Below are positions 1-55,607 of a stretch of 64,000 nucleotides of DNA, piece after piece (the stretch's first letter is position 1; each line of letters opens with the position of its first letter). The stretch spans positions 11,281 to 75,280 of the forward strand of contig JAUCBJ010005882.1 in assembly GCA_032718475.1 (NCBI GenBank). Reading direction: 5' to 3'. The DNA comes from Nemertoderma westbladi. Lineage: Eukaryota; Animalia; Xenacoelomorpha. The position numbers and the translations under genes were made by a program. A model generated the notes under the pieces. That model was given only the letters and a program-made list of their open reading frames with translations. It ran no database searches and had not been told where the DNA came from.

Positions 1-7
1 AACTTAC

Positions 8-220
8 TAAGTACATCTTCGGCGTCCTCCTTCTTAACGTCCTGGAGGGGCAGTAGATGTGTGAACTGGTCCGCGTCGTCCACCAAATCCAATTCATCCA
101 CAATCGCGGGGTAATCCTTAAAACCATCTTTACGTACGGCAAACATTACCTCGATCATATATTGAACACGTTTGTCGATTTGTGAGTCGTGAAGGATTGC
201 TCGTAGTCTATCGTATATAG
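8..220 (-). CDS. CWC22: CWC22 exon 6; gene continues beyond the window's left edge
   Basis: ttcag acceptor and A|gtaag donor. Encodes AIYDRLRAILHDSQIDKRVQYMIEVMFAVRKDGFKDYPAIVDELDLVDDADQFTHLLPLQD. Confidence 0.95.
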
Positions 221-664
221 CTGAAAGGGGAATAAGTCATTGATAGATAAATATGTTGTAAGACGTGAAATTAATCTTGATCTTGAATATATTTATCATT
301 GAACTTATAGGAGTGTAAACGATAAGCCGACAAACGACAACGATAACTATGGAACTGGACCGTGTGATCTTTACTCTCGTTTATTGCTCTAATTTAGTCC
401 AATTTTAAAAAAAACACAACTAAATAAATATATAGTATTATTGTGAATTGTGATGTTGCTTTTATCCATGAACAACAATTAGTCTAGCGTATTTGATTGG
501 CTAAAATCATAAAATATGTAAATATTGGACAGGTTAAGAAAACATCTGATTTACATCATTCTGTGAAAAGTAGCACTTTTCAGCGTTTTGAACCGAGCGA
601 GTGCAGTGAGGGTTGTTTACATAAATTAACGATCAAAAGTAGGTACAACAAGATGTATAATCAG

Positions 665-1877
665 TAGGGGTGTGCCGGATATCCGGCCGGGCCGAAATTC
701 CGTCCGGATTTAGAGGAAAAAATCCGGTTCCGGCTCCGGTCGGATTTAAATTTTTTGGCCGGATTTCCATTTCAACGAATTGTTGACAAAATTTACAATT
801 AATGTAAATTTTCAAAAATAAACTTTAAAATAAATTTTCGTTTAAATTCAAACAAAAATAGACATAAGCAAATACAATGAAATACAATACAATTTTTGTC
901 ATAGTTTGTACCGTTGGACTCAGCGTTACTAGCACTTAATTTATATAATATTACACGCCCATAATTATTAATTAATTATAATTTAATAATTATGGCCCAT
1001 GTGAAGAATACCAGACTTTCTGCCGTTATATTTCACTTTGCAGTTACCCCCAAGTGAAGAATACCAGGTTTTCACTAGAAACATAGGTTACAGAAGTGCT
1101 GAATCTAACCAAAACAATAAACGAATTAGTATATGTACAGGTTATGAGACAGAAATAAGCGCTATAAAACACTTAGTGAAGATAAATTAAAAAAAATAAA
1201 AAATCTTCATATATAAAATTATAATAAAAAGTCGACCGAAAAGTGAAATCCTTGTATTCTTCACATGGGCGATAATTATTATTAATTAGCCCATAATTAA
1301 AACGAGTATGTCTAGGTATATTGTTATAAATTGAGATTAAGCTTACCACTATGAATGACCAGTTTATATATTCGACAGGCAAATTTAGAAACTCTAGTAA
1401 ATCCAATTTAACTCAGAGTGTATAAAAATACAACAGCTATTATTTCTTCGTTCTATTTTTCAATTTGCAATTTATATTATCAAATCAATTCATTATGATA
1501 CTAAATATGCATGTACAACTATTTGTAAATTAGGAAATTATTCCTTATTTGCAGCCAACCAACGCAAAACGCTCTTCTCGTCCCCTTTAGATAATTGACA
1601 TATACTTACTAATCTACTTCTGAATTCATAATATGAATGAAGTCAAAGTCCATATCACATGACCTTGCTGATCATGATTAGCACGTTAGGTTCTGTATCT
1701 GTCGACGCAGGACCTAACGCACAAAGGACCAAATGATGGGTTCCCCTTCCTCAGTTCTGTTCATTCATACAGGTACCATAGCTTATCGGGAAAAACAAAA
1801 AATTCGGATTTTTTTTACAAATCCGGCCCCGGCTCCGGCCTCGACGGTTTAAAAATAGCCAATCCGGCACATCCCTA
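665..1877. mobile_element. Non-autonomous hAT-like TIR element in CWC22 intron 5
   Basis: TIRs TAGGGGTGTGCCGGAT / ATCCGGCACATCCCTA, with an exact 8-bp TSD ATAATCAG (657-664, 1878-1885) and subterminal CCGG repeats. Confidence 0.85.
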
Positions 1878-1889
1878 ATAATCAGTTTA

Positions 1890-2172
1890 TACGGCGGGTA
1901 AAAATGCTATATGAATGGGAGATTGTTTTAGGCTCATTAAGCCAAGGAATGCCTGTTCATCACCATGGGGGATTTTCCACAGTAAACCCTTCCACTCTGT
2001 TTCCCAAGTTGCTTTGGTTCCCATTTATCGACCACCGAAGGATGAAGGCCAGAGTTGGGCTAGGCTGCAGCAATTAAAGTACTGTGCCCAAACAGTGCTG
2101 TCCACTCTAGGGATCGAACCAAGGCTTCCTAATTGGAAGCCCATGAATGTCACCTCACCACTAGACCAGGCT
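1890..2172 (-). mobile_element. tRNA-derived SINE (degenerate)
   Basis: Minus strand begins CCTGGTCTAGTGG (A-box-like), has GGTTCGATCCC (B-box), then a non-tRNA body. Boundaries are approximate. Confidence 0.6.
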
Positions 2173-2451
2173 TAACGACCATTACCGGTATATATCTGCC
2201 TACTTACGTGGTACAGATGGACACTAAAACCACCTAAAGTCCTCCTGCATACAAAGTCCCATAGCTTATAACATAATCGGTACGGTAAATACATTTTATA
2301 GTCCGGTACATGAGTGAATAAGGTTCAAAGATAAGCGGGTTTATATACCGGAATCGATTCAAATTGTATAATAAAAGAAAGAACCGCAGCGTTTCTCCAT
2401 TTCGTACCGGACTTTAGATACTTCCGTTTCCGGTACATCTCTAACACATAC

Positions 2452-2587
2452 CGTGCATTCCTCTGGGTGTGACGTCATTCAGTTTATGACCGCATTCTTT
2501 CAGAAAACCTACAGCCATTTCGACTGAGTCATTGGTTGGGTTCTCCAGCAACAAAGTTAGTATTTCCAAAGCGATAATCTCATGGGC
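2452..2587 (-). CDS. CWC22: CWC22 exon 5 (MIF4G)
   Basis: tttag acceptor and G|gtatg donor. Encodes [45 protein letters not shown]. Confidence 0.95.
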
Positions 2588-2663
2588 CTAAAACGAAACA
2601 TTACAAAGAAATATAATTAATAAAAAACATAATAAAAAATGATATTTCAATATATTATGGGTC

Positions 2664-4007
2664 AATGCCAACCATATTGATATCAGATTAATATCCCTGC
2701 TGAATATAATTCCTGTGAACAAATAAACATTGATTTGTAGTAAATTTGAGATATTAGAAATACAAATAAAAAATTAACGTGGTCCGATTTTTTGTCACTT
2801 ATGTGACACTCAGTAAATGATTAATTTAATGGCATATAAATTGTCAAATATGAGCCATTAACCCGATGTGTTAACACTCCCACTAATATTCTTCCATATG
2901 AATAAGTTAGATGGCAATTTTAGGTGGTTAATCAGTGCATATGAATAATTGCGCGAGAGTCTCCAAAATGGCCCAAAAAAGTGTCCCTTAACGGAGGTTT
3001 TTTTTATCAGAAAACGCGAACTCAAAGATTTTCAGTGAGACTGCTCCGTAAACATTTAATTGGCCAGGTTGAAGAAACTGCCCTGTCCCATAACGTGACA
3101 TGATGTCCCATACTTGACATTGTATTGGGGACAGAAGTTAATCATGGTCTAACTTACATATAATTAATGGTTAGGGGCTTACCAGTCACAGATAAACTGT
3201 AACCTGAATTGACAACAGACGAAATTAATTTATTACCAAATTAACTATTTGTGGAAAGGGTTTTTAGATTGGGACAGTAGTTGAGAGTGGGATGTAAGTT
3301 GGGAATGGAACAGGAGTTGAATTCTAGTACGGGAGTTGTTTGAAGAATTTTATGATTTGTTTTTAATTGGAAAATAAATGTCAAAATTTATAATAATCGT
3401 TTCCATGCAAATTCCGTCCTATACTATATCAATATGTCCCATACATGACATAAAAAACTGTCTATTTACATTTTCAAATTAATTTTTTTAATATAAAATA
3501 ACGGTTTTCATTTGACCATAATATGTAACATTTTTGTGTATCACATTGTTATTAACAGGAAAAAAAACAACTAGCCCCACTTTTCACGGCAAAGTTGCCA
3601 GAAAGTGACACTTTGTCTTGTCACTCTATGTATAATTTATTTTTAGTGACAGAATTTTTAAATTTTATCTCACCAGAAAACTTTCCACTTCGATCTGACA
3701 TCTCTTGCCGGACACCTCAATACCCTATTAAAGGACTGCTACTTCAATTTTTCAAGAATATGGACATAAAGTACGAAAAAAATATTTATATATTTCCCAT
3801 ACGTGACAAAAAAAATTTTCTAAATTTTTGCATTCCAGAGCGATTCTCTCAATAACGGCCAAGAAATTTGTGGGGCACTTTATGGTTTCATATGCAGAAA
3901 TTATCGCTCTTTCTAACCATGACTATGGTATATTCTCAAAGTTGATTTCAAAATTCAACAAATTTCAAAAATCACGTACGGGACATTGGTCAATATGGTT
4001 GGCATTC
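2664..4007. mobile_element. Possible non-autonomous TIR element
   Basis: 17-bp inverted repeat AATGCCAACCATATTGA / TCAATATGGTTGGCATT with internal TGTCCCATAC-like motifs. No clear TSD. Confidence 0.4.
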
Positions 4008-5119
4008 ATTGAAATTCATTGAAAACAAGTTTTCTTGTAAATAACTTGTGTAAAGGATGTCCTTAAAGCAAGAAAGTATCAATAAGTTTGAAAGTGTCAC
4101 CTGACATGTCAAGGAGCCGATGGTATAAGTTAAATAATTTGGGATCAAAACTTTAATAAAATTACATTCCGATAGAGTTAGCACAACCACCACCACCACC
4201 AGGGCACCAGCTCTACAAAATGGTGAATAATGAAATAAAAACCACCGGGAAGTTATGTTAAGATTATACAATGTTAATAATAAATTATATTATGGAATGT
4301 TTGAATCCATATCATCTCAAAATAAATTACCTCAAAATAATTATCCCTACTAATATAACTCTCTGATGAGAGTTTTAATAGTTCAATAGTTGAGAATATA
4401 AATATCGGTAATTTTACCAAGTGATGTGGGGCGAGTCAAAACTGCCACCCATCATCTAACTGTTAATAATTATACTATGGCCGTTTTCTAAAATTCTGTG
4501 TGTGTTGGAAGCTATAATATAACTAGCCATTGTATAATTATAATTGTTCGCTAAAAGACGACTTACATCTTTTGCTGCACGAAGGCTCGCCCCACTCGTG
4601 TTATAGTGCAGTAACAGGCTATCCTACTTAACCCACAGGAGTATTAATAGGGTAGAAGCGGGATTCAGTAATTAGCTTGGGGTGGGGGGTGGGGGGGTGG
4701 GTGGGTGGGTGAAAGGTTGAGTTTCGCAATTTTCCCCGCCCGCTCCGTCTATTACCCTTAAAGTATAAGGGTTAGGGATATTACTAGATGGAATGGACGG
4801 GAAGATGGGGGGGGGGGGGGGGGGGAGACAATACTAAAACAATACGGTCAGAAACCGTAGAATGGAAACATCCAAATAAAGTTAGCCAATGACAAGAGGG
4901 TTCATAGAGTACGAGTACACTGCAGTTGTGTGGTAAAACACTAAATCTCGAAAATAAGCGTTTAGAGAAAAATTCGAGAACATTTTTAAATAGTCAAGAT
5001 CGGGTGATTTTCATATCACAGGGAAGAGGAAAACTTATTTAATTAATTAATTTCCCTAATGGTTCTTCCACATTCTTGAAAACATGTCGCTTAAAGTTTA
5101 GGAAACGAACGTAACTCAC

Positions 5120-5342
5120 CACTTCCTGGTTGACGAGATGAGCCAAGAACCTAGAGGAAGACAGACTGGGGGTCTTTAGGTTCCGTCTGTAGCCTTTACG
5201 GAAGGTGAGAATCAGTCGCTTAACGACCAGTTCGCCAATCTGTGGAAACTTCGTGTTTATAACGGATACGAGAGCCGCGTAGACGTTAGTGAAGGTAGGT
5301 GAGGCTGACTGGGCCTGGATTACAGACCGGGAGAATAAACCT
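5120..5342 (-). CDS. CWC22: CWC22 exon 4 (MIF4G)
   Basis: ttccctgtag acceptor and GTG|gtgag donor. Encodes [74 protein letters not shown]. The 5' boundary assumes the most proximal acceptor is used. Confidence 0.93.
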
Positions 5343-5712
5343 CTACAGGGAAATAAAGCGGAGTTAGTGAAGGTAGGTGAGGCTGACTGGGCCTGGATTA
5401 CAGACCGGGAGAATAAACCTCTATAGGGAAATAAAGTGGAGTTAGTGAAGGTAGGTGAGGCTGACTGGGCCTGGATTACAGAGCGGGAGAATAAACCTCT
5501 ATAGGGAAATAAAGTGGAGTTAGAGAAGGTAGGTGAGACAGACTGGGCCTGGATTACAGATCGGGAGAATAAACCTCTATAGGGAAATAAAGTTGAGTTA
5601 GTGAAGGTAGGTGAGTCTGACTGAGCCTGGATTACAGACCGGGAAAATAAACCTCTATAGGGAAATAAAGTGGAGTTAGTGAAGGTAGGTGAGGCTGACT
5701 GGGCATGGATTA
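5285..5712 (-). repeat. 78-bp tandem repeat, proximal block (about 5.5 units, including the real exon-4 start)
   Basis: Unit on the minus strand is tccactttatttccctatag|AGGTTTATTCTCCCGGTCTGTAATCCAGGCCCAGTCAGCCTCACCTACCTTCACTAAC. The last unit runs directly into unique exon-4 sequence. Confidence 0.97.
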
Positions 5713-5999
5713 TATAAGCAGTAGGTAATTATTCTATAACACAATACAATCCTGTAATCCAGTGTATAATATTAGTAGTACAACAATCCAGCAATATTAT
5801 AATTAGTAATACAGCGGTACAATAATTAGGCAGAACAACCTCACTCTGCCAGCTTTACATGTAGGCCTAACCCTCCACCTGTCACACTGTACTGTACATC
5901 TGTATGTATCTCTTAACCTCAGTTCAGCCAGTCCGGTACCGGTACAACCCACATTCGTACATCCCTCTATTGGGCCATGGCCTCTTATTTCCCCTTATA
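5713..5999 (-). repeat. 3' LTR (287 bp)
   Basis: Bounded by TATAAG...CTTATA and immediately preceded on the minus strand by the polypurine tract GGGGGGAG (6007-6000). Confidence 0.75.
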
Positions 6000-6064
6000 C
6001 TCCCCCCAGTTCATTAATGAACTAATCTTGAATTGTCACACATGTGGAAATCATAATTTTACTT

Positions 6065-9000
6065 TCAGTTTATATTAATCCCATATCTCATAGGTGGTCT
6101 TGACACTCGTCCCGTACGCAATCTATAGTGCTCTCCTGGTTCTTCAACTGCGTTTGCATTGGTATAATCGACAGTTTCCTCCAAACTTTCATTTGCAACA
6201 ATATTATCTTCTTCATTTGAGCTAGATTCACTGTTACTATCACTATAATTCTGGTGTTGTACGGGTACTGTTGTGCAGTACTGAGCAGTACTGAGATTAT
6301 TTGGGCTTATCTGCCCACATTCCGCTTTCCTAATGTCTTGTATATGTCGCTTGTATCCACCTGCTATAACTGACCAAGAATCTGGAACCGCCTCAATTAT
6401 CAGTGGGCCTCTCCATTTTGTGTGGCACTTTACATGTTGTTTCGGCTTAATATATACAAATTCCCCAATTTTAAACTTATATTCCATTTCCGGTTCTGTT
6501 GCAATAACTTCCGTAACACCTGGTAATTTGGTGATATGATTTGAGGTAAGCAGTTCCCATGGTGACTTATTTCCATGTGATGCAGTCCTGTTATACCAAA
6601 AGGCAATTTGCGTGGGTTCTTTGCCTGTTCTTGCTGCCCATGTCTTAATAGTTCTATGGGATCTTTCAACTATATTCCCTTGTGGTCTATAAGTGCACGA
6701 GGTCCGGTGTTTAACTTCCCATTTTTCCAAAAATTGTTTTGTTTCTTTACTCCTAAAAGCGGGTCCATTATCAGACAATAACTCTTCTGGGGGCCCCCAC
6801 TCAACAAATACTTGCTGCAATTCCTTTATAACTGCCTCTGCAGTTTCTTTATTAACTTTACGCCATATAGTAAACCCGGTAGCGCAATCGACCATTGTCA
6901 GATATTGGTTTTTATTTTCATCCTCTGTGAAGTCAGTTGATAGTCTTTCCCACCCTCGCTCCATCTTACAAGTTCCTTTTTTCACTGCAGTAACAGGATT
7001 TGGATCTATGTATTTGCATTTATTACAGCTATTGCACACTTCTTTGACTAATTTCCTTGTCACATTCATTGTCTGTAATTCTCTAAGTGCTTAGGCTGTA
7101 GCGGAGTACCCTAAACTTTTAAATTGTGAACTAATTTTTAAATTTAATTATATTTTAACGCGATTTTAATTGAATATACTGCTGAAGACGCCCGCGAGGG
7201 TGAAATGGCCATACGGTAAATAATTAACTTCATTTTTTATATATCCACGTGGTGAAAGACCCTTCCTTGCCTTTATTAATCCTGTAATTATGAATACGCC
7301 ACGTAAAACGTTGTTCCGGTTAATCCAAAACCTAAGTTTATCGAATTCCGTATCATTGTTACATAACATTTGAGTACGATCCGTATCTGTATGAGCAATT
7401 TGATGAATCTCTTTAATTCTCTCAATCACGTGTGCTTTGTTGCAAGGAACATTGTGTGCTTGTATTCCTATTCCTGCTATTTCCCTTATGTTTTTATTTT
7501 CGTCATTCCCCTTTAACCATGATTTCGGAACTCTGGTTAAGCAATCTGCCAGGTTCTTAGCAGATGTAATTTGCTGTATTGTCACTTTTATGCCATATTC
7601 ATCCACCGTCCTCTTTAATAGCTATAATCGTCTTCTTATTAACATTTTTGATAGACCTTTTGTCTTCAAACGGTGCTCATCATTCAACATTGATTTGATC
7701 CAACCATATGCTGAGCTCGAATCTGTATATATCGTAATTGTTTTAAGACCCCACTCAATAGCAATGTTTAACCCCTCAATGATCGCAGTCAGTTCTGCCG
7801 CATTTATATGCTCAGGGTCATCGTCTTTTCTCAACCATGCTCTATCCTCGGCGACTACCCCACCAATCTTCACTAACGCCCCAATGGCTATTGTACTTGC
7901 GTCGGCCCATACTTCTCCTACGTGAGTCTTCATTATTGGCCACTGACCTTGTGAGGGATCTACTTTATTGACTCTATCTACCACCTCAATGAGTTTCTTT
8001 CTAGTGTTCTCACTGATAGGATCATCCATGCTAACTGATGATTATTGGCGTTGTAGCCACCCACATGCAACGCGCAACCAACCAGAAATTAAATAATTAC
8101 CTCGGAGTTGACCAATCACAGCCAATAATTTTCGATGGGTCACTATCCCTTGAATAGATTCTATTGTCGGTAAATCGCTGTCTCTGATCCATCGACCATC
8201 CTTCACATACACTCCCAATATTCGAGCCCCATTTTTAACCTCCACTGGTTCTTTAGATTCAAGCCCAAATTTCTTCAAATGATTTCTAACATCATCAGCT
8301 GTAATTCCAGAATCCAGGTCCACATAGACATCATCACGGAAACTTTCTGTGGCTCTCTCAATCTTCTCGTCTTGTTTTAGCACAGTCTCTACAATATTGT
8401 CAAGTATCTTTGGTGCTGGGCCCAGTCCAAAACCAAGCTTGGTCATACAATATCGTTTGTCCTTATACTCAACAACTTGGTATGGATGCAGTTTAGAATG
8501 CACATTGACCTGCATATAGGCCCACTTCAAGTCAATCAGTGCTGTCCTTTCACCCATGGTAGCCCACTTTCTCAGTTTCTCAACACTGGTAGCTGATTCC
8601 GTTCAAGGTTCATTTATAATAAATTGATTCAATTTTCGAAAATCCATTATCGGACGTACTCGATCTTTTTTGGTTCATTTTTGTACATTAGAGGAATGAG
8701 TGCTTTTGTTTCCCCGTGAAATTCTTTTAACCATTCACCCATGCCAATATCAAACTTCTCCCGTAGTTCCTGGGGAATTTTGTATTGCTTTACTCTATTA
8801 GTCAGTTTGTCTGGGTTTTGTCCAGTGATGAATATATACTCTGTTTCCCATTATATTGAGATTGTAATCAAAGCTTCAGGATTAATATTTCCAACTGCAC
8901 TCATTAATTGTAAATTTGGGACTGAATTAAACAGCACACTAACAGTGTCTTTCGGCCCACATTGAATGGAGATCCCCCCCATTTTTTTTATAATGTTCCA

Positions 9001-9342
9001 TCCTATAACTAAGTCTAAGCCCCCAACCATGTCTACAATAACTAAAAATTCACATTTAGGCAAAGTGACATTATTAATTCTAATTTGTGTTTCAATTGTC
9101 CCCATAATCATATCTGTTTTTGTACCATCTAACATTGAAATAGTGTTTCCAGCCATCTTTCGATCTAAAATCCCATTAATCCTAGCACTACATTTATGTG
9201 AGACAATCGACTGCCTACAACCAGTATCTATTAACCCATCTACTGCAATTCCACCACATTCTGCCTTTATAATTGGCAGATCGCCCATTATTTTAGGGAA
9301 ACGGCCACTAGCGCATATGCCGTTCCCCTCTACTCGTTTCCC
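6065..9342 (-). pseudogene. pol: Retrotransposon pol (protease, RT, RNase H, DDE integrase) broken by stops, frameshifts and an insertion
   Basis: Protease LIDTGC (8851-9288). RT IDLKWAYMQ, LGFGL and FRDD (8042-8557). RNase H WADAS, AAEL and YTDS (7622-8029). Integrase STDF, SDNGPAF and VERSHRT (6065-7069). Confidence 0.92.
7094..7332. mobile_element. About 240-bp secondary insertion in the integrase zinc-binding region
   Basis: Non-coding block separating H..AH (7400s) from C..C (7030s) of the integrase HHCC motif, flanked by CTTAGG...CCTAAG. Confidence 0.5.
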
Positions 9343-10330
9343 TAGCTCTGTAGCCTTCCACTTGGCCGCATGGAACTATCTGCTCCAGTATGTTTGCAGT
9401 ACAGTTGCGAGCTATGTAGTCTGGTCCTCCACATCTAAAACAATTACTGGCAATCGAATCCCTATAGTTGTGGTAACTTGATTCTCCCCAACATTCTCGT
9501 GCATAATGTCCACTTTTTCCACATCTGAAGCAGTTAATCCCAAATCCTTGGCCTCGACCCCGGGATATATTTACTTGCCCTCGGCCAATTCTGAAATTTC
9601 CTCCATCTCTACCACGACCAGTTGTAAGATTGCCTATCTCTCGTCCCCGACCGAAACTTGTCCCATCTCGCTCTCGATGGAAACTTCCACCTCCTCGGGG
9701 ATTTTGGAAATTTCCAGGAAATCCTCCAGCAGCTCCAACAGATCCAATTGGATACGGTAGGCCGACAACTAATCCCCCTGCAGCTCCTACGGTGCCAGAA
9801 TCCTTATGTTGTTCTGACAATAATCTGCGGGCCTGAACAATTAGATTGTTCAGTTCCAATCCATCAACTAAAGCTTTGACCTCCCCAGCTATCCTTTCAG
9901 GAAGAACACTGACGAACTGCAGAGCAATAATTATATTAGCTACAACTGTCTCTACCGCGTTTAGTTTTATTTCATCAGACACTAATCCAAACAGTCGTTT
10001 TAAATCGGCTAGGTACGTATCCGCTGCCTCCCCATCCTGCAGTTTCCGTATCTTAAACAGTTCGTAGGCAGTATACTCGCTAACAGCAAATGCAGATATT
10101 AATGCCTTCTTTATTAGGTCACAATCTTGCTTTTCGGCGTTAGATAACTGACTCACTACTTCATACGCTGACCCATCTAACGACAATCGTAAATAAGTTG
10201 CCCGCGCCTCCTCTTTTAATCCAGCCTCGACCACTAATACATCATAAGTGTCATTAAATATCGCCAGCCACTGACTCGGATCTGTACTACCATTATACTT
10301 CTTAACATCATCTGAGAGTTTTGGAGCCAT
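9308..10330 (-). CDS. gag: Retrotransposon Gag with CCHC zinc knuckles
   Basis: 340-aa ORF containing CFRCGKSGHYAREC and a degenerate second knuckle CFRCGGPDYIARNC. The C-terminus is probably frameshifted. Confidence 0.88.
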   Translation of the reverse strand: MAPKLSDDVKKYNGSTDPSQWLAIFNDTYDVLVVEAGLKEEARATYLRLSLDGSAYEVVSQLSNAEKQDCDLIKKALISAFAVSEYTAYELFKIRKLQDGEAADTYLADLKRLFGLVSDEIKLNAVETVVANIIIALQFVSVLPERIAGEVKALVDGLELNNLIVQARRLLSEQHKDSGTVGAAGGLVVGLPYPIGSVGAAGGFPGNFQNPRGGGSFHRERDGTSFGRGREIGNLTTGRGRDGGNFRIGRGQVNISRGRGQGFGINCFRCGKSGHYARECWGESSYHNYRDSIASNCFRCGGPDYIARNCTANILEQIVPCGQVEGYRARETSRGERHMR

Positions 10331-10333
10331 GTT

Positions 10334-10345
10334 GCCCGGTTAGCT
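10334..10345 (-). promoter_or_regulatory. Putative primer-binding site AGCTAACCGGGC
   Basis: Directly abuts the 5' LTR. Its complement GCCCGGTTAGCT resembles the first 12 nt of eukaryotic tRNA-Lys (GCCCGGNTAGCT). Confidence 0.55.
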
Positions 10346-10552
10346 TATAAGATATAATAAGTAATATCAATCGTAATATCATTAATATCAATCACACACT
10401 ACTCCAGAATCAGGTTTATATTAACTCCTGCACTCAATACACCACCGGTAGGCCTACTCAGTCGTTCCACCCTAACTATCTACCTGTTTTAATTTACCGC
10501 CACCTTATATATATCGCAACTCAACCCACAGAGTCTCTTATTGTACCTTATA
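10346..10552 (-). repeat. 5' LTR (207 bp) with TATA box
   Basis: Bounded by TATAAG...CTTATA. TATATATAAGG at about 10513-10503 on the minus strand. Followed by a 15-nt leader and the gag ATG. Confidence 0.7.
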
Positions 10553-13500
10553 GATTACAGACCGGGAGAATAAACCTCTATAGGGAAATAAAGTGGAGTT
10601 AGTGAAGGTAGGTGAGGCTGGCTGGGCCTGGATTACAGATCGGGCGAATAAACCTCAATATGGAAATAAAGTGGAGTTAGTGAAGGTAGGCGAGACTGAC
10701 TGGGCCTGGATTACAGAGCGGGCGAATAAACCTCTACAGGGAAATAAAGTGGAGTTAGTGAAGGTAGGTGAGGCTGGCTGGGCCTGGATTACAGATCGGG
10801 CGAATAAACCTCTATAGGGAAATAAAGTGGAGTTAGTGAAGGTAGGTGAGGCTGACTGGGCCTGGATTACAGATCGGGCGAATAAACCTCTATAGGGAAA
10901 TAAAGTGGAGTTAGTGAAGGTAGGTGAGGCTGACTGGGCCTGGATTACAGATCGGGCGAATAAACCTCTATAGGGAAATAAAGTGGAGTTAGTGAAGGTA
11001 GGTGAGGCTGACTGGGCCTGGATTACAGATCGGGCGAATAAACCTCTATAGGGAAATAAAGTGGAGTTAGTGAAGGTAGGTGAGGCTGGCTGGGCCTGGA
11101 TTACAGATCGGGCGAATAAACCTCTATAGGGAAATAAAGTGGAGTTAGTGAAGGTAGGTGAGGCTGGCTGGGCCTGGATTACAGATCGGGCGAATAAACC
11201 TCTATAGGGAAATAAAGTGGAGTTAGTGAAGGTAGGTGAGACTGGCTGGGCCTGGATTACAGATCGGGCGAATAAACCTCTATAGGGAAATAAAGTGGAG
11301 TTAGTGAAGGTGGGTGAGGCTGGCTGGGCCTGGATTACAGATCGGGCGAATAAACCTCTATAGGGAAATAAAGTGGAGTTAGTGAAGGTAGGTGAGACTG
11401 GCTGGGCCTGGATTACAGATCGGGCGAATAAACCTCTATAAGGAAATAAAGTGGAGTTAGTGAAGGTAGGTGAGGCTGGCTGGGCCTGGATTACAGATCG
11501 GGCGAATAAACCTCTATAGGGAAATAAAGTGGAGTTAGTGAAGGTAGGTGAGACTGGCTGGGCCTGGATTACAGATCGGGCGAATAAACCTCTATAGGGA
11601 AATAAAGTGGAGTTAGTGAAGGTAGGTGAGGCTGGCTGGGCCTGGATTACAGACCGGGAGAATAAACCTCTACAGGGAAATAAAGTAGAGTTAGTGAAGG
11701 TAGGTGAGGCTGACTGGGCCTGGATTACAGACCGGGAGAATAAACCTCTATAGGGAAATAAAGTGGAGTTAGTGAAGGTAGGTGAGCCTGACTGGGCCTG
11801 GATTACAGACCGGGAGAATAAACCTCTATAGGGAAATAAAGTAGTGTTAGTGAAGGTAGGTGAGGCTGACTGCGCCTGGATTACAGACCGGGAGAATAAA
11901 CCTCTATAGGGAAATAAAGTGGAGTTAGTGAAGGTAGGTGAGGCTGACTGGGCCTGGATTACAGATCGGGCGAATAAACCTCTACAGGGAAACAAAGTGG
12001 AGTTAGTGAAGGTAGGTGAGGCTGACTGGGCCTGGATTACAGACCGGGAGAATAAACCTCTATAGGGAAATAAAGTGGAGTTAGTGAAGGTAGGTGAGGC
12101 TGACTGGGCCTGGATTACAGATCGGGCGAATAAACCTCTACAGGGAAACAAAGTGGAGTTAGTGAAGGTAGGTGAGGCTGACTGGGCCTGGATTACAGAG
12201 CGGGCGAATAAACCTCTACAGGGAAACAAAGTGGAGTTAGTGAAGGTAGGTGAGGCTGACTGGGCCTGGATTACAGACCGGGAGAATAAACCTCTACAGG
12301 GAAATAAAGTAGAGTTAGTGAAGGTAGGTGAGGCTGACTGGGCCTGGATTACAGAGCGGGCGAATAAACCTCTATAGGGAAATAAAGTGGAGTTAGTGAA
12401 GGTAGGTGAGCCTGACTGGGCCTGGATTACAGACCGGGAGAATAAACCTCTATAGGGAAATAAAGTAGTGTTAGTGAAGGTAGGTGAGGCTGACTGCGCC
12501 TGGATTACAGACCGGGAGAATAAACCTCTACAGGGAAACAAAGTGGAGTTAGTGAAGGTAGGTGAGGCTGACTGGGCCTGGATTACAGATCGGGCGAATA
12601 AACCTCTACAGGGAAACAAAGTGGAGTTAGTGAAGGTAGGTGAGGCTGACTGGGCCTGGATTACAGACCGGGAGAATAAACCTCTACAGGGAAATAAAGT
12701 AGAGTTAGTGAAGGTAGGTGAGGCTGACTGGGCCTGGATTACAGAGCGGGCGAATAAACCTCTATAGGGAAATAAAGTGGAGTTAGTGAAGGTAGGTGAG
12801 GCTGACTGGGCCTGGATTACAGAGCGGGCGAATAAACCTCTATAGGGAAATAAAGTGAGTTAGAGAAGGTAGGTGAGGCTGGCTGGGCCTGGATTACAGA
12901 CCGGGAGAATAAACCTCTATATAGGGAAATAAAGTGAGTTAGAGAAGGTAGGTGAAGCTGACTGGGCCTGGATTACAGACCGGGAGAATAAACCTCTATA
13001 GGGAAACAAAGTGGAGTTAGTGAAGGTAGGTGAGGCTGACTGGGCCTGGATTACAGACCGGGAGAATAAACCTCTATAGGGAAATAAAGTGGAGTTAGTG
13101 AAGGTAGGTGAGACAGACTGGGCATGGATTATAGAGCGGGAGAATAAACCTCTATAGGGAAATAAAGTGGAGTTAGTGAAGGTAGGTGAGGCTGACTGCG
13201 AGCCTGGATTACAGAGCGGGCGAATAAACCTCTATAGGGAAATAAAGTAGAGTTAGTGAAGGTAGGCGAGACAGACTGGGCATGGATTACAGACCGGGAG
13301 AATAAACCTCTATAGGGAAATAAAGTGGAGTTAGTGAAGGTAGGTGAGGCTGACTGCGAGCCTGGATTACAGAGCGGGCGAATAAACCTCTATAGGGAAA
13401 TAAAGTGGAGTTAGAGAAGGTAGATGAGGCTGACTGCGAGCCTGGATTACAGAGCGGGCGAATAAACCTCTATAGGGAAATAAAGTGGAGTTAGTGAAGG

Positions 13501-14420
13501 TAGGTGAGGCTGACTGGGCCTGGATTACAGACCGGGAGAATAAACCTCTATAGGGAAATAAAGTGGAGTTAGTGAAGGTAGGTGAGGCTGACTGGGCCTG
13601 GATTACAGAGCGGGCGAATAAACTTCTATAGGGAAATAAAGTGGAGTTAGTGAAGGTAGGTGAGGCTGACTGGGCCTGGATTACAGACCGGGAGAATAAA
13701 CCTCTATAGGGAAATAAAGTAGAGTTAGTGAAGGTAGGCGAGACAGACTGGGCATGGATTACAGACCGGGAGAATAAACCTCTATAGGGAAATAAAGTGG
13801 AGTTAGTGAAGGTAGGTGAGGCTGACTGCGAGCCTGGATTACAGAGCGGGCGAATAAACCTCTATAGGGAAATAAAGTGGAGTTAGAGAAGGTAGATGAG
13901 GCTGACTGCGAGCCTGGATTACAGAGCGGGCGAATAAACCTCTATAGGGAAATAAAGTGGAGTTAGTGAAGGTAGGTGAGGCTGACTGGGCCTGGATTAC
14001 AGACCGGGAGAATAAACCTCTACAGGGAAATAAAGTAGAGTTAGTGAAGGTAGGTGAGGCTGACTGGGCCTGGATTACAGACCGGGAGAATAAACCTCTA
14101 TAGGGAAATAAAGTGGAGTTAGTGAAGGTAGGTGAGGCTGACTGGGCCTGGATTACAGACCGGGAGAATAAACCTCTACAGGGAAATAAAGTAGAGTTAG
14201 TGAAGGTAGGTGAGGCTGACTGGGCCTGGATTACAGACCGGGAGAATAAACCTCTATAGGGAAATAAAGTGGAGTTAGTGAAGGTAGGTGAGGCTGACTG
14301 GGCCTGGATTACAGACCGGGAGAATAAACCTCTATAGGGAAATAAAGTGGAGTTAGTGAAGGTAGGCGAGACAGACTGGGACTGGATCAAAGACCGGATC
14401 AAGTCAATCCCTGGGGAATT
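10553..14420 (-). repeat. 78-bp tandem repeat, distal block (about 49 units)
   Basis: Same unit as 5285-5712, near-identical copies. The outermost copy (about 14352-14420) is diverged and is preceded by unique intronic sequence ttatttaattccccag. Confidence 0.97.
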
Positions 14421-14567
14421 AAATAAGATAATATTAAAAGCATATAAACTATTTAGAAATTAAATAGAACTCTTGAAATTCCAAATAGTAACTGCCAAGA
14501 ATAGACAATTTTTAAATGTCAGTTTAAAATAATATAAAAAAAAATAATTATATATAAATAAACTCAC

Positions 14568-14696
14568 CTGCCACGGATAATGTTCTCTTGAAACAGTTCC
14601 TTAACGATCTCAATAATATTAGATATATTGATTTTGTTAATTAAACCGTGGATAGATTTACGGAGGGCCTCCCACGACAGGCGCTGGTACAAAGCG
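14568..14696 (-). CDS. CWC22: CWC22 exon 3 (start of MIF4G domain)
   Basis: ttttcag acceptor and AG|gtgag donor. Encodes [43 protein letters not shown]. Confidence 0.95.
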
Positions 14697-15084
14697 CTGA
14701 AAATAGATATTATATTATATTAATATAGAATACTTGCCAAAACCACCAATCCATATATAATAGCCTCAATATAATGGACGAGTTGTTAAGAAGTCCCTTA
14801 AAATCAAGCGGGCACTTAATTTAAGTTGATTCAAAGGGACTTCTAGAATATCATATAACATGACAAAAACTTCCTCTTATAATTGGAATTCCAGAATACC
14901 TCCTTAATAATACTCATTAAGTTAATGGAGCTATTAACATAGTTGAATTTAATTATTTTACCAGTGTCCCATTGTATGTACTGTCCAGTGTCCATTAGTT
15001 GATTTGGAGGCCGGAAAACAGATAGATATAAGGAAATGAATAACATGTGCGAATATCCTGAACTTCATTGTTTAAAAAACTAAC

Positions 15085-15130
15085 CAGCAAACGTTTCGAG
15101 TACAAAACTGTATTCATCATCAGAGCAACA
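15085..15130 (-). ncRNA. Minimal type I hammerhead ribozyme-like motif
   Basis: CTGATGA-T-GAATACA-GTTT-TGTACTC-GAAAC-GTT-TGC. The second copy at 16482-16526 (+) has a mutated core, CTCATGA. Confidence 0.55.
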
Positions 15131-15210
15131 CACATAAATGCAGAAACTAATAATCATAATCATAAACAAAAAACTAAATACTAACATCAGGCAAAAATTA
15201 CTAAATAGAA

Positions 15211-16247
15211 GCAGAGGCAGTTAAGTTAGCAGCTGCAGAAACAGTTCCTGTATACCCTCGAAACAGGAAACGGGCCCCCTGGATTGACAACAAAATTCAG
15301 AAGTGTCGAAATGACCTCTACAAGGCGCAGAAAGAGTCCCGACTCAAACAGACTACAGCGGCCAAGAATGCAGTTAAGGCTGCATCCTAGGTCCCTGAAC
15401 AGGCAGTACTCTGTTAATTTACAGGAGCTAATAAACTAACAGGTTGATGCCATCAATGATGCTGACGACAGCAGGCAATCATCCCAGGCATGGAGATCGA
15501 TCAACTTGGTTGCTGGTCGAAAAAGCCAACCAACCACCAAGGTTAAGGCTGAATCACCAGCCGATCGCCTCAATGGTTGGAAGGCCCACTTTGAAAAGCT
15601 CCTCAATAGTGACCGGGTATTGCCTGATAACTTTATAGAAGTAAAAGGATCATGGATCGGGAAGTCAGATGAGGACCTTCGAATACGTAAGGGAAAGGCA
15701 TGGGCAGCCTTGAATAGGCTTTCCAGGATTTGGAAGTCACCGAGAATTAATCGGAAACTTAAGGTCCGATTATTTAGAGCAGCAGTAGTTCCAGTACTCC
15801 TCTATGGGAGTCCATGCTGGGCTCTAACTGCTGAGGACACCAAATCTCTGGATGGCACATTCACAAGAATGCTACGCCGAGTTCATTGTGTCAAGTACAA
15901 TGCACAGCACACATCTTCAACCAGACACTATATAACATTGGAGGTGTCTCATTGGTTCCCCCAAGCTTGACACTAGAACAAAATCGCCTCCGCTTTGCAG
16001 GACATTGCTTTCGCCGTGAGGACCAGCCAGTGCATAATCTTGTACTTTGGCAGCCTCATGGAGTGAATAAGCATGGTGGACAGCCCATGACTTTCTTGAG
16101 ACGCATCTTAAAGGACACTGGCCTTGAAGATGCGGATGATCTAGCAAATGTCATGGGTGATAAGGAGTTGTGGCGGTGCAATTTTACGATAAGCCGGCAC
16201 AGCATTCTTAAAAATGCAGCTGCAATGCAGCATGCCGATCCTAGTAG
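15211..16247 (+). mobile_element. RTE-clade LINE derivative lacking the RT core
   Basis: 12-bp TSD TACTAAATAGAA (15199-15210, 16248-16259) and a (TAG)n tail. Post-RT peptide KVRLFRAAVVPVLLYGSPCWALT...RLRFAGHCFR is fused directly to the pre-RT linker WKAHFEKLLN. Confidence 0.88.
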
Positions 16248-16910
16248 TACTAAATAGAATGAATAGCCCAAACGGATAGTAGGGCAGTCTACCCAGAAAA
16301 TAAGGCTAGTTTTATGGAGCTAAAACTAATCTGTTTTGTTTATTATGGGTAGGTTGGATGTCTCGAATGAAAAGGGACCCTGTAATGGCTGTATCAAAAT
16401 TGTAATTAGCTGAACCAATAATCGAACAATTAACGATTGTACACATCGCATGCAATATATTAGTTTCTGCATTTATGTGTGTTGCACTCATGATGAATAC
16501 AGTTTTGTACTCGAAACGTTTGTTGGTTAGTTTTATTAAACAATGAGTTTTAGGATATTCGCGCATGTTAATCTTTTCCTTATACTGTCCATTGCATCTG
16601 CCACTGAAATATGCGAGCGTCTAAATATTTTCTAACCAAAACAATAAACCAAATAGGAGAACGCATGTTATATTATAGCAATGTTAAAGGAACAAGAACT
16701 AATGCCTATACTAGTGCTATATGCTAAACTAATGCCTATACTAATGCCTATACCCAAGAAAAAACGAAACGCAAACTGGAAATAAACAATTGTGCATTAA
16801 AATATCCTGGTACAAATATATAAATACACAATCCACAAAGATGCCGGTATTGTAAATTTATATAATATAGAGCACTACATACTACAGTAGGCCTACTATA
16901 CAACACAAAC

Positions 16911-17282
16911 CTGGACTTGTCGGACGCATCTGTTTGCAGAGCCCGTAGACGATGGGGCGGGATATAGGCGCCGCCAATGAGGCCAGACAGAGTCTCTGAG
17001 CTCGGTGTGGGTCGGGCTGCCGTAACAGACGAGGTGGCAGCAGTCTGTCCACTGGGACCAGAACCAGAAGCAGCTATGGGATCTGGAACATTTTCTCTAG
17101 GGAGGCTTACATTAGATAGTCCTTTGACCTCTTCACTTGCCTCCCCTGTTTTAGACATCATCGTTGATTGATCTTCGACTGCATCGCCGACTTCCGAACC
17201 TTTACTTCCGATTTCCCCATCTTCTGGTTCAGATGAATGTTCCGAAACAGATTGTTCGGCCATAGAACTGGCACTGGAAGAG
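16911..17282 (-). CDS. CWC22: CWC22 exon 2
   Basis: tttag acceptor and AG|gtttgt donor. Encodes ...IGGAYIPPHRLRALQTDASDKS, matching the conserved CWC22 motif GGAYIPP.(K/R)LR...TDK. Confidence 0.9.
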
Positions 17283-17535
17283 CTAAAGATAAATAAACAC
17301 GGGTGTAGAAAGATAATATTATGGAGTAATCGTAATGTTAATACATCGGTGTCACAATGGAGAATGGCTGTAAGGGCAGAAGGGTAAGGGCCAACTTGAT
17401 CGGCTACCGCTACCTGGCTACGCTAACTACAGACAACTTCTTGCATTGATTGCTATAGCTCCGCATTTTTGTGTTTTAGACATGATCTATGTTGTACCGC
17501 TATCGTCAGATCGTGGCTCTATCACAGTCTGACAG

Positions 17536-22468: not shown

Positions 22469-24690
22469 CGGTCCTACTAATTACCCCAACCTACCCCAAC
22501 CTACCACAAACTACCACAATCTACCACAATCTACCCCAACAATTCGATACAGGCATCTAATTACCACAATGTTATTTTACAATGGCATCTAATTACCACA
22601 ATATACAGAACTCAAGTGTCTATTTACCACAAGACTACACTGCATCTAATTACCACAATATTATTTTACAATGGCATCTAATTACCACAATATACAGAAC
22701 GCAAGTGTCTAATTACCACAAGACTATACTGCGTCTAATTACCACAATCTATTTACGAACAAGACTACACTGCACACTGCATCTAATTACCACAATATTA
22801 TTTTCCAATGGCATCTAATTACCACAATATACAGAACGCAAGTGTCTAATTACCACAAGACTATACTGCGTCTAATTACCACAACACTATACTGCGTCTA
22901 ATTACCACAACACAACACTGCGTCTAATTACCACAATCTATTTACCACAAGACTACACTGCATCTAATTACCACAATATTATTTTACAATGGCATCTAAT
23001 TACCACAATATACAGAACGCAAGTGTCTAATTACCACAAGACTATACTGCGTCTAATTACCACAACACTATACTGCGTCTAATTACCACAACACAACACT
23101 GCGTCTAATTACCACAATCTATTTACCACAAGACTACACTGCATCTAATTACCACAATATTATTTTACAATGGCATCTAATTACCACAATATACAGAATG
23201 CAAGAGTGTCTAATTACCACAAGACTATACTGCGTCTAATTACCACAATCTATTTACCACAAGACTACACTGCATCTAATTACCACAATATTATTTTACA
23301 ATGGCATCTAATTACCACAATATACAGAATACAAGTGTCTAATTACCACAACACTATACTGCGTCTAATTACCACAATCTATTTACCACAAGACTACACT
23401 GCATCTAATTACCACAATATTATTTTACAATGGCATCTAATTACCACAATATACAGAACGCAAGTCTCTAATTACCACAACACTATACTGCGTCTAATTA
23501 CCATACCACAACGCTATACTGCGTCTAATTACCACAACACAACACTGCGTCTAATTACCACAATCTATTTAAGAACAAGACTACACTGCACACTGCATCT
23601 AATTACCACAATATTATTTTACAATGGCATCTAATTACCACAATATACAGAACGCAAGTGTCTAATTACCACAAGACTATACTGCGTCTAATTACCACAA
23701 CACTATACTGCGTCTAATTACCACAATCTATTTACCACAAGACTACACTGCATCTAATTACCACAATATTATTTTACAATGGCATCTAATTACCACAATA
23801 TACAGAACGCAAGTGTCTAATTACCACAAGACTATACTGCGTCTAATTACAACAAGACTATACTGCGTCTAATTACCACAAGACTATACTGCGTCTAATT
23901 CCACAATCTATTTACCACAAGACTACACTGCATCTAATTACCACAATAATATTTTACAATGGCATCTAATTACCGCAATATACAGAATGCAAGTGTCTAA
24001 TTACCACAACACTATACTGCGTCTAATTACCACAATCTATTTACCACAAGACTACACTGCATCTAATTACCACAATATTATTTTACAATGGCATCTAATT
24101 ACCACAATATACAGAACGCAAGTCTCTAATTACCACAACACTATACTGCGTCTAATTACCACAATCTATTTACCACAAGACTATACTGCATCTAATTACC
24201 ACAATATTATTTTACAATGGCATCTAATTACCACAATATACAGAACGCAGTGTCTAATTACCACAAGACCACACTGCATCTACTGTAATTACCACAATAT
24301 ACAGAATGCAAGAGTGTTTAATTACCACAATATACAGTACGGTAGTTATTAATATTCAGTGTCTAATTACCGCAAAACTTCACTAACGTCTAATTACCAC
24401 AATATACAGAACTCAAGTGTCTAATCACGGGTAGGACTAAAAACCCAAACGGACCCAAACGGTACCCAAACGAACCCAAACGGTGGAATACGGAGTTATA
24501 TCAACAGATGTTATAGTTGCCACAACGGGGAAACAATTATACGATTATATGAAATCATAATTACAGTAATGCAGCTTTTTGTGTTTTACATTCATGAAGA
24601 ACACAAAAAACGGTGCCAAGCCCGTATAAATGCAGAGGCTCATCTATCAACCACGCTACTTTACACGTATATGATATACAATAGACATCA
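22469..24690 (+). repeat. Left inverted arm built of TCTAATTACCACAA-cored subrepeats
   Basis: Dozens of TCTAATTACCACAA cores with a few recurring spacers in higher-order units, then a unique GGGTAGGACTAAAAACCC block. Mirrored at 28866-30719. Confidence 0.92.
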
Positions 24691-26606
24691 TTAAAAAAAT
24701 TAATCAAAAAAATAAAATAAAGTACAGTGTATTTTCTGAACGGGCATTTATCAGGGCAGGGCATTTGTAAATAAATTCCAAGGGCAAGGGCAAGGGTTCT
24801 GTTGTGCTCTGGGATATGTGGGCACAATTTACTGTAGGACACACAGTTATCACAATTGGTGGTGGAGAATGATATTTATAACATAAGCGACATTTACAGT
24901 AGCAAATATGTGAAAGAATTATGTATTTCAATCCATCGTTATTATTCGTGGAAGAGTTTCAGCGAGAAGAGTCAAAATTATGTCAACCTCGTACAGTACA
25001 AATTTCAACAGAATGGACGTGATTAATTACTCTGCAAAATTTTACTCTTAATCATAAAATCGGCCCACCCATCTATGAAATACTGGAAAACGGTGAAGGA
25101 AGAATTACGGATACTGTACCAGAAACGAACGAGACACAGGAAATACATAATTTGTAAGTTTAAATACTTTATTGAAGTAATAAAATTAACCAATAAATTA
25201 ATTGTGTTTAAACACCATTTAATTCCGAATAAAAATAGCCTTAGTTTATATAAATCAATTATTGGGGCACAATTTCAGTATATTATATCCATAACGAAAT
25301 CAGTTTATTTCATTTAGTAATAAGTTCTACAGTATATAGGTAGGTGAGTCTGTCGGTAGGTCAGTTGGTTAGTCTGTCGTTCAGTCTGTCGGTGGGTTAG
25401 TTGGTCACTCAGTCGTTCAGTCTGTCGGTTGGTTGATTGGTCGGTAGGTCAGTTGGTTAGTCTGTCTGTCAGTCGGTTGGTCAGTCTTTCATTCAATCTG
25501 TCGGTCAGTTTGTTGGTTGGTTGGTTGGTCTTGTGGCAGTTGGTTTTGTATGTGAGTCCGTCGGTCGGTTGGAAAATTTATCATTCAGTCTGTTGGTTGG
25601 TCGGTCAGTTGATGGATCGGTACGTCAGTTGGTTAGTCTGTCAGTCGGTCGGTCGGTTGGCTGGTCAGTCTGTCGGTCAGTCTCTCGGTCGGTTGGTCAG
25701 TATTTCGGTCAGTCTGTTGGTCGGTTGGTCAGTCGGTTGGTCAGTCAGTCGCTCAGTCTGTCAGTCGATTGGTCAGTCTGTCGGTCAGTCTGTTGGTCGG
25801 TCGGTTGGTCAGACTGTCGGTGGGTCTGTCAGTGTGTACCAAAAAAAAATTGTAAAAAAAGGTTAATTAAGCAATATTATATTATACAGTAATTAACCAC
25901 AGTAACTTTTAGAGGCTGAAATGAAGGAAGTGAGAGATGATAACAAAAGATTTCAATCCCGGTCCCTATTGGCTACCAATGTGAATTATCTACACGGCTA
26001 TTGGTAGATGGAAGGAACCCTTGCAGTACAAATAGTAATGGTACTACATGCATTAAGTCAATACATGCTTACTCTCTTCAGCTGATTTTATTTTTATCCA
26101 ATCATTGTGTGTGTGGCAAGGTAGCTTACAGAATCTTTGCTATTTTGCTAATTCTTTAAATTAAACTGCACAATAATAGCTTCACCCACACATATCCCAC
26201 AACCTATTTTTGTATATTCACATTTATAAGTGCCAACATCGCATCCATGTGATGGATGCGATCTGCCATCCTCTGCCAATCTCTGACAGTGTCAAAGGCA
26301 GTTTGGGTTGGGTTTAGAAATACAGTTCAGGTAGACATTCCGCACATTAAATTTATACAGAAATTTATACTGTCCTACTGATGGGATTCATACAGTATAT
26401 ACAAATTATAAATTCAGCCAGATATTTTATTAATATTGCCATTACTGTTTGCAATAGTTTTATACGAATATAATATATATTTTATACGCTTTTGTTGTGG
26501 ATTGCTCATCGGCTTGTGGATTCAGACGAATAAAGGATAATGAAACCAAAGGTATTATTCCCGAAATCGAAAGCATTATTCCCATGTGGAACCTGTTTAC
26601 TAAATT

Positions 26607-54817: not shown

Positions 54818-55607
54818 TGTTACTGATGATTTATAATTTTGTTTTGTTGAATTAATGATAAAGTTGACAATGATACAGTAGAGTTGTAGTGCACGTGAGT
54901 AACTAATTAATTAATGTACATAATTAATCAACTTAAGCAAAATTAGTAATTAAACTGTAACATGCGACAATTTTTGGAGATACGCATCCATCAAACAAAT
55001 ACGTTACATACGTATTAGATTAACAACCCTCAACCCCCCCCCCCCCCCCCTCACGTACGGATATTATGGCAATTTACAACAAACTCTCTTAACTTGAAAG
55101 TCTTTTTTTTCTATTAACGTTACCGGTTTGGGGCGGCATGTTGGGGGATTTCTACCATATGGTACTTTACCTCCCCAGAGAATGTACCAACCAAGTTATG
55201 AAATAGGGAACGTTTACTGACTGAATGGATGCTTTCCTTCTCCCATTTGATTTTATACCAATCATATTGTGTATCGTGTTCCATAAAACTATAACATTTG
55301 TTAGACGTAAAAACAACCATCACCATACGGACGTACGGTACGTACATTGGTACATACAATAAGCAAATAAGGCCCATGTGAAGAATACTAGAGGTTTTAT
55401 CTTTTCTGACGAAATTTTATTGAAACTTTATGAAGAATGTATTTTTTTTCAATGTCTCCTTATTAAATATTTTAAAACGTGGGGCTAAATTGCAAAGTGA
55501 AATAAAACAAATAAAATAAAACTGCTGAAAGTCTGGTATGGTATACTTTTCTCATGGGCCGAAAATGAGGTAACCCTAGACTACCCCCCCCCCCCCCCCC
55601 AAACGCG

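What the first reader, a model, noticed from the sequence alone, without database searches (positions are those of the whole stretch)
5343..5712. Four proximal extra acceptors are in frame and stop-free, making a ladder exon that could add 26, 52, 78 or 104 aa inside the MIF4G domain
Seen: the unit is exactly 26 codons ([26 protein letters not shown]). Acceptor AGs at about 5421, 5499, 5577 and 5655 are in phase with 5343 with no stop codons. In the distal block the frame stays open for more than 650 codons, and frame-breaking indel variants cluster further away (about 12850-13920). Inference: proximal acceptors give longer CWC22 isoforms with duplicated helices. Distal acceptors now read into a stop at 10655 or into the retrotransposon and would be NMD targets, so the insertion may have capped the usable ladder.
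Basis: partly seen in the sequence, partly recalled or inferred. Interest (0 to 1): 0.7.

Follow-up and report, generated by a model that had tools for sequence, protein, structure and literature searches.

The report
"Mirage" splice-acceptor repeat in CWC22
The boundary between an intron and the next exon of the splicing gene CWC22 has been copied 54 times head to tail and four spare copies sit in frame, but as in similar repeats known from lancelets and humans the cell likely uses mainly the last copy, so the longer proteins are a possibility, untested here for lack of RNA data.

Summary
Observation confirmed: a 78-bp unit (20 intron + 58 exon bases) of CWC22 is repeated 54 times; acceptors at 5421, 5499, 5577 and 5655 are in frame with 5343 and stop-free. 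This is a 'mirage' minisatellite, a described class (PMC3087553, PMC3902484); the scan noted eight such arrays in other genomes. Published cases splice mainly at the exon-adjacent site. The ladder is unproven: no RNA holder was listed; indels are not depleted proximally (p=0.39); 0 of 300 homologues carry a 26-residue insert; 7 of 10 amino-acid variants are residues rare or absent in homologues. For it: synonymous variants are in excess in the ladder frame (14 of 28, 8.2 expected, p=0.015), though equally in distal-only variants. The retroelement did not cap the ladder by itself: a stop at 10657 does, and the insertion removes one rung. Points of local interest: exon codons supply a branch-point motif to each copy; the probable ancestral acceptor (14411) is intact but reads into a stop; the inserted element's two LTRs are only 70% alike. 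New member of a known kind; interest 0.3.

The parts
16911..17263 (-). CWC22 first coding exon found (ATG at 17263)
   Evidence: 0 of 11 conserved columns violated in its conserved end
14568..14696 (-). CWC22 second coding exon; ends in phase 2, donor CAG|GTGAGT at 14567
5343..14567 (-). Intron of 9225 nt if the last acceptor is used; 157 nt to the probable ancestral acceptor
14352..14430 (-). Unit 0: probable ancestral acceptor (AG ends 14411, AT-rich tract like the gene's other acceptors) and diverged first exon copy; one base longer than the exon, stop at codon 3 (14406)
10553..14351 (-). Distal block, 49 units; 48 keep AG; 7 off-length units at 12839-13941; TGA at 10657-10655 in the unit that lost its AG
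5713..10552 (-). Ty3/Gypsy-like LTR element (zinc knuckle, protease, RT, integrase; pol broken by stops), same orientation as the gene, inserted inside one unit with a 5-bp target duplication TAATC
10346..10552 (-). 5' LTR (207 nt)
5713..5999 (-). 3' LTR (about 287 nt) after a polypurine tract; 139 of 199 aligned bases match the 5' LTR
5343..5712 (-). Proximal block: remainder of the interrupted unit and four spare units; acceptors end at 5655, 5577, 5499, 5421; in frame, no stop
5343..5369 (-). Terminal acceptor: branch-point-like CACTAAC from the preceding unit's exon codons (A 21 nt before the end of the AG), 20-nt intron-derived tail, TAG
   Evidence: branch-point consensus recalled
5120..5342 (-). 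CWC22 third coding exon, 223 nt, MIF4G; donor GTG|GTGAGT at 5119
2453..2587 (-). CWC22 fourth coding exon (end approximate)
3..221 (-). CWC22 fifth coding exon (runs to the window edge)

Best explanation
This is a 'mirage' minisatellite: a 78-bp piece spanning a CWC22 intron/exon boundary is repeated 54 times and split by a retroelement, and the spliceosome likely uses mainly the last acceptor (5343), making normal CWC22, with at most minor in-frame leak to the next one or two acceptors. Steps: (1, shown) the unit is 20 intron + 58 exon bases. (2, inferred) an old duplication made a second acceptor; it could work with only 20 intron bases because the exon's Phe-Thr-Asn codons spell a branch-point motif 21 nt before the AG. 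(3, inferred) unequal exchange amplified and homogenised the unit, leaving the border copy (unit 0) to decay. (4, shown) an LTR element inserted inside one unit. (5, inferred, recalled exon-definition logic) the acceptor nearest the strong donor at 5119 and next to the unduplicated exon sequence wins. (6, inferred) the synonymous excess reflects variants passed into the array from the coding terminal copy, not translation of spare copies. The in-frame unit length makes any leak cheap but is likely a tolerated accident.
For: Anatomy matches the class description. Published cases: mirages in Adh3, globins and troponin C do not give aberrant mRNA; in CBS 844ins68 the downstream of two duplicated acceptors is chosen; F7 pseudo-donors stay silent. 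The gene is under purifying selection (0 of 70 conserved columns violated in exons 1-4, 3 of 18 in exon 5), so one of the five in-frame acceptors must serve. Length of this stretch is fixed in the family: 3 of 300 homologue alignments have an insertion there (1, 4, 13 aa), none of 26. Spare units tolerate damaging changes: only 3 of 10 amino-acid variants are residues seen in 3 or more of 142 distinct homologue segments, no better than 37 of 127 possible changes (p=0.60); a proximal unit carries A to D, seen in 0 of 142. No proximal depletion of indels or stops (p=0.39). In-frame and stop-free arises in 14% of simulated duplications.
Against: No RNA test was possible. The five proximal acceptors are nearly identical, so nothing in the acceptor sequence favours the last. 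Synonymous variants 14 of 28 against 8.2 expected (p=0.015), none of the five other frames significant; linker alone 5 of 9 (p=0.039; 5 of 8, p=0.058 without the AG), which exchange with the coding copy does not explain; only 2 of 26 second codon positions vary against 20 of 52 others (p=0.003, post hoc, not corrected for base content). ABCA7 shows retention of one repeat unit in a donor-side array, so leak is real elsewhere. Why the intact acceptor at 14411, only 157 nt from the donor, is skipped is unexplained.
Confidence: 0.65

Rival explanations
1. Real ladder: the four spare proximal acceptors compete with the last, and a sizeable share (over 10%) of mRNA encodes CWC22 with 1-4 extra helix copies that loop out of the MIF4G domain.
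For: In frame and stop-free; equal branch-point and tract sequences; synonymous excess including the intron-derived linker; unit equals one helix plus a turn, which could loop out.
Against: No 26-aa insert in 300 homologues; damaging variants in spare units; synonymous excess as high in distal-only variants (8 of 17) and distal singletons (4 of 7) as in proximal (6 of 11); published mirages silent.
Confidence: 0.2
2. Unproductive-splicing switch: the intact ancestral acceptor at 14411 and distal decoys divert part of the pre-mRNA into stop-containing forms degraded by NMD, so array length or cell state tunes CWC22 dose.
For: 14411 keeps AG and an AT-rich tract like the gene's other acceptors, 157 nt from the donor, and reads into a stop at codon 3; all 49 distal units are unproductive; splicing factors often use such forms (recalled); ABCA7 repeat length affects splicing.
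Against: No donor scoring 7 of 9 or better lies in either repeat block, so distal acceptors cannot close a short exon there; the ten such sites are all in the retroelement. No conservation data from relatives.
Confidence: 0.08
3. The gene copy is crippled by the array (a poorly spliced allele or dying paralogue).
For: 54 competing acceptors and a sense-oriented LTR element in one intron; 3 of 18 conserved columns differ in exon 5.
Against: All five exons open; 0 of 70 conserved columns violated in exons 1-4 although unit 0 and the exon have had time to diverge at 6 of the last 45 bases and most of the first 14.
Confidence: 0.04
4. The array is an assembly artefact.
For: One sequence only; no genome or reads to check.
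Against: Units carry 28 distinct variants in nested patterns, a diverged border copy, and an insertion with a target duplication.
Confidence: 0.03

Closest known systems
Amphioxus 'mirages' (globin BflGb6/BflGb9, Adh3, troponin C, PGBD5); PMC3087553 section 16 read whole, PMC3902484 one passage
   Same: Head-to-tail copies of an intron 3' end plus exon 5' part (as BflGb6); most units keep splice signals; homogenised interior with a diverged border copy.
   Different: 54 units against 3-6 in BflGb6; unit is a whole number of codons and stop-free; array split by an LTR element; host is an animal whose lineage I could not fix (best CWC22 identity 76%); splicing outcome untested here.
Human CBS c.844_845ins68 (passages of PMC7490669 and PMC1802585)
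   Same: Duplication of an intron end (52 nt) and exon start (16 nt); two near-identical acceptors; the downstream one is reported as selected.
   Different: One extra copy, 68 nt (not a multiple of three); G runs reported to drive the choice; here the sense strand between acceptors is pyrimidine-rich.
Human F7 intron 7 37-bp VNTR (abstract of PMC1557585) and ABCA7 intron 18 25-bp VNTR (passages of PMC5954066)
   Same: Minisatellite that multiplies a splice site; the exon-adjacent site is the authentic one.
   Different: Donor side; F7 pseudo-sites silent; ABCA7 shows one-unit retention that shifts the frame, whereas one-unit retention here would keep it.
Intron gain by tandem duplication of an AG/GT proto-splice site (Rogers model, as summarised in PMC3087553)
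   Same: Tandem duplication creates new splice sites inside a gene.
   Different: Here an existing acceptor is duplicated; the one AG|GT in the unit scores 5 of 9 as a donor; no new intron is indicated.

Membership tests
Mirage minisatellite | Tandem repeats whose unit spans an intron/exon boundary | tested here: met
   20 intron + 58 exon bases, 54 units
Mirage minisatellite | Many but not all units keep the splice signal | tested here: met
   53 of 54 keep AG
Mirage minisatellite | Concerted evolution inside, border copy excluded | tested here: met
   mean pairwise difference 3.8-4.2 of 78 bases; unit 0 far more diverged
Mirage minisatellite | Length variation between haplotypes or cells | not testable with these tools
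   no genome, no runs listed
Mirage minisatellite | Regular splicing is unaffected | not testable with these tools
   no RNA holder listed
CWC22 family | MIF4G domain homologous to human CWC22 | tested here: met
   E 5e-30 to 6yvh/4c9b; conserved columns kept
Recursive splice site (ratchet point) | Acceptor AG directly followed by a regenerated donor GT (definition recalled) | tested here: not met
   AG is followed by AG-GTTTAT; the GT is 2 nt downstream and scores 5 of 9
Intron gain by tandem duplication | Usable donor and acceptor at the same offset of two units | tested here: inconclusive
   unit-internal GT sites score 4-6 of 9 against 7-9 for three true donors; crude score, no RNA
Coding VNTR (translated repeat ladder) | Repeat units present in mature mRNA and protein | not testable with these tools
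Coding VNTR (translated repeat ladder) | Coding constraint on the units | tested here: inconclusive
   synonymous excess p=0.015, but no indel depletion (p=0.39) and no bias to tolerated residues (p=0.60)
Ty3/Gypsy LTR retrotransposon (inserted element) | gag zinc knuckle, protease, RT, integrase in that order | tested here: met
   Pfam zf-CCHC, Asp_protease, RVT_1 (E 0.0014, below cut-off), rve
Ty3/Gypsy LTR retrotransposon (inserted element) | Near-identical LTR pair and target-site duplication | tested here: inconclusive
   5-bp duplication present; LTRs homologous but 139 of 199 aligned bases alike

The most novel reading that the evidence does not exclude
An essential spliceosome gene has moved to a repeat-born acceptor whose branch point is written by its own exon codons, and its nearest spare copies are spliced in and translated, giving CWC22 isoforms with extra MIF4G helices: a mirage that is not silent, with the synonymous bias in the intron-derived linker as its footprint.
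Probability: 0.15. Interest if true: 0.65.

Novelty: new member of a known kind. Interest (0 to 1): 0.3.

Why it matters
If silent, it is a large natural test of 3' splice-site choice: 53 near-identical acceptors plus an intact older one are passed over in an essential gene, and because the proximal products escape NMD, any leak could be counted directly in mRNA, which out-of-frame arrays do not allow. If the ladder is expressed, it would show intron-derived sequence and duplicated helices entering a conserved spliceosome protein through a minisatellite, something the mirage papers read here propose (exon recruitment) but do not show.

Tried and rejected
No genome held: copy number of CWC22 and other arrays untested. 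Search with the four-unit ladder frame found no protein with the repeats: best 120 of 521 listed cover 42% of the query, one 56% (P0167, normal spacing). Fold of one spare unit plus the exon: spare unit pLDDT under 50 with no helix; not used, because the flanking helices and alignment depth are missing. Lineage: CWC22 and TPK searches show an animal gene set but no close relative. Recursive splicing and Rogers-type intron gain rejected or unsupported. Other arrays of the window looked at in sequence only (46946-48138, 51948-52943): no coding exon seen at their ends. A higher-order repeat comparison was out of register and is not used. The donor coordinate tried for the fourth exon was wrong, so its row and one of four intron tails in the simulation are not true splice sites. 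Papers not held: Canestro 2002, Tsai 1996, Zhuo 2007. Literature searches for this locus (1 unrelated review listed), for in-frame acceptor VNTRs (0) and for non-identical LTRs (0) found nothing; these cover open-licence papers only.

Full report
What is there. The minus strand of window 1-17300 holds five coding exons of CWC22; the third matches human CWC22 residues 195-268 at E 2e-29. Between the second exon (donor at 14567) and the third (5342) lie two blocks of a 78-bp repeat. The unit is the last 20 bases of the intron and the first 58 bases of the exon. There are 54 units, 49 distal and 5 proximal; 53 keep the AG. A Ty3/Gypsy-like element at 5713-10552 separates the blocks; it sits inside one unit with a 5-bp duplication.

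Observation. Joined to exon 2 in phase 2, the acceptors at 5655, 5577, 5499, 5421 and 5343 give exons of 535, 457, 379, 301 and 223 nt, all stop-free. All 49 distal units are unproductive: 19 stop after frameshifts, 28 read to the TGA at 10657, one lacks the AG, one stops in the LTR at 10540. Without the insertion only the acceptor at 10577 would be added before the stop at 10657, so in the present sequence the insertion removes one rung; the order of stop and insertion is unknown.

Is in-frame surprising? 2910 of 20604 simulated duplications (10-60 intron bases from four tails of this gene, one of them mis-placed, plus 20-120 exon bases) are in frame and stop-free, 14%. The exon part is stop-free by descent and the intron part is pyrimidine-rich. 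Indels and stops: 0 in 5 proximal units, 9 lesions in 49 distal (8 indels in 7 off-length units, 1 stop), Fisher p=0.39; as about 4 independent events p=0.68.

Variant spectrum. Against the majority unit there are 28 substitution types (2 alignment artefacts beside an indel were dropped from 30). In the ladder frame 14 are synonymous, 8.2 expected when each change is re-dealt to a position with the same base (p=0.015-0.016); the other five frames give p of 0.098 or more. The intron-derived linker has 5 of 9 (p=0.039; 5 of 8, p=0.058 without the AG). Variable sites fall 9, 2, 11 on codon positions 1, 2, 3. It is weakened by three results: the excess is the same among variants seen only distally (8 of 17) as among those seen proximally (6 of 11); amino-acid changes are not biased to residues that homologues accept (3 of 10 against 37 of 127, p=0.60); and three variants are shared with the old border copy (without them 12 of 25, p=0.031). 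I infer that alleles of the coding terminal copy have been passed into the array by unequal exchange; this explains the exon part but not the linker, which rests on nine variants.

Protein. In a model of a human-like homologue (P0012, pLDDT 91; matches 6yvh and 4c9b) the unit's exon part is helix 83-96, the turn and the first five residues of helix 98-114. The stretch is rigid in length: 187 of 188 scorable homologues among 208 have the same spacing as the normal product, and 3 of 300 spanning alignments among 357 proteins have an insertion (1, 4, 13 aa); many of these homologues are close vertebrate relatives. The window's gene violates 0 of 70 conserved columns in exons 1-4 and 3 of 18 in exon 5, so it is very likely functional and spliced to one of the five in-frame acceptors.

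Mechanism. The 58 exon bases end in CACTAAC (Phe-Thr-Asn codons), 21 nt before the end of the next AG; 50 of the 58 minus-strand occurrences of this heptamer in the window are in the array. It fits the branch-point consensus (recalled) and would explain how a copy with only 20 intron bases became a working acceptor (inferred). Unit 0 at 14411, 157 nt after the donor, has an AT-rich tract like the gene's other acceptors and is probably the ancestral site; its exon copy is one base long and stops at codon 3. The gene must therefore skip it. The other introns are 2.2-2.5 kb, which suits exon definition (recalled): the acceptor closest to the donor at 5119 and to unduplicated exon sequence should win. 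No donor scoring 7 of 9 lies within the repeat blocks. The five proximal acceptors are almost identical, so some leak to 5421 is plausible and would escape NMD. None of this was tested on RNA.

Comparison. Ebner et al. (PMC3087553; section 16 read whole; supplements not read) describe 'mirages', minisatellite-like duplications of intron/exon boundaries, including an acceptor-side case, with homogenised interiors, excluded borders and regular splicing by RT-PCR. PMC3902484 (one passage) says the Adh and troponin C mirages do not generate aberrant mRNA. In CBS 844ins68 the downstream acceptor is selected (passages; the primary paper was not read). F7 (abstract) and ABCA7 (passages) are donor-side; ABCA7 shows one-unit retention. 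PMC2630376 gave only reference-list hits. Three of the five mirage features were tested and met; two need RNA or more haplotypes. The scan's own notes list eight similar arrays in other genomes, one also codon-phased; these are unchecked AI notes and are not counted as support. I did not find this locus in print (open-licence library only).

Verdict. Real, a new member of a known kind. Terminal acceptor dominant 0.65; sizeable ladder 0.20; unproductive-splicing switch 0.08; crippled copy 0.04; artefact 0.03. Interest 0.3: size, the in-frame unit in an essential splicing factor and the unexplained codon-like variant pattern lift it above an ordinary mirage, but no expression evidence exists.

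Noticed in passing
window 5713-10552: The LTR element's two ends share TATAAG...CTTATA termini and are homologous (score 98.5, best of 200 shuffles 80.5) but only 139 of 199 aligned bases match and lengths differ (207, about 287), although it sits in an array whose units differ by about 5%. Family trait, recombination between two insertions in different units, or conversion: unexplained. One literature search found nothing.
   Followed up: partly
window 14352-14430: Probable ancestral acceptor is intact and only 157 nt from the donor, yet leads to a stop at codon 3; divergence is concentrated in the first 14 bases after the AG.
   Followed up: partly
P0209 and P0210 (Closterium sp. NIES-65 gene models): Predicted CWC22 proteins with many internal tandem duplications of exon-sized pieces, perhaps mirage-like arrays read by gene prediction.
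   Followed up: no
window about 22500-30600: Long inverted arms built of tandem repeats, 95-100% complementary, around an open frame at 26604-27653 with a PHD finger: a foldback-like transposon.
   Followed up: no
window 46946-48138: 31-bp array (38.5 copies) with CAG|GTGAG in most units on the + strand, 150 nt after the stop of an intronless LRR frame (45174-46796); preceded by an inverted copy of the unit.
   Followed up: no
window 54029-54910 and 55611-57119: Intronless thiamine pyrophosphokinase and glycosyltransferase family 1/4 frames on the minus strand.
   Followed up: no
window about 15200-16100: Fragment of a non-LTR-like element (DUF6451) in CWC22 intron 1, opposite strand.
   Followed up: no
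window 5165-5180: The exon reads RRNLKTP where homologues have a nearly invariant RNDK in one alignment; the column did not reach 90% in the wider set.
   Followed up: partly
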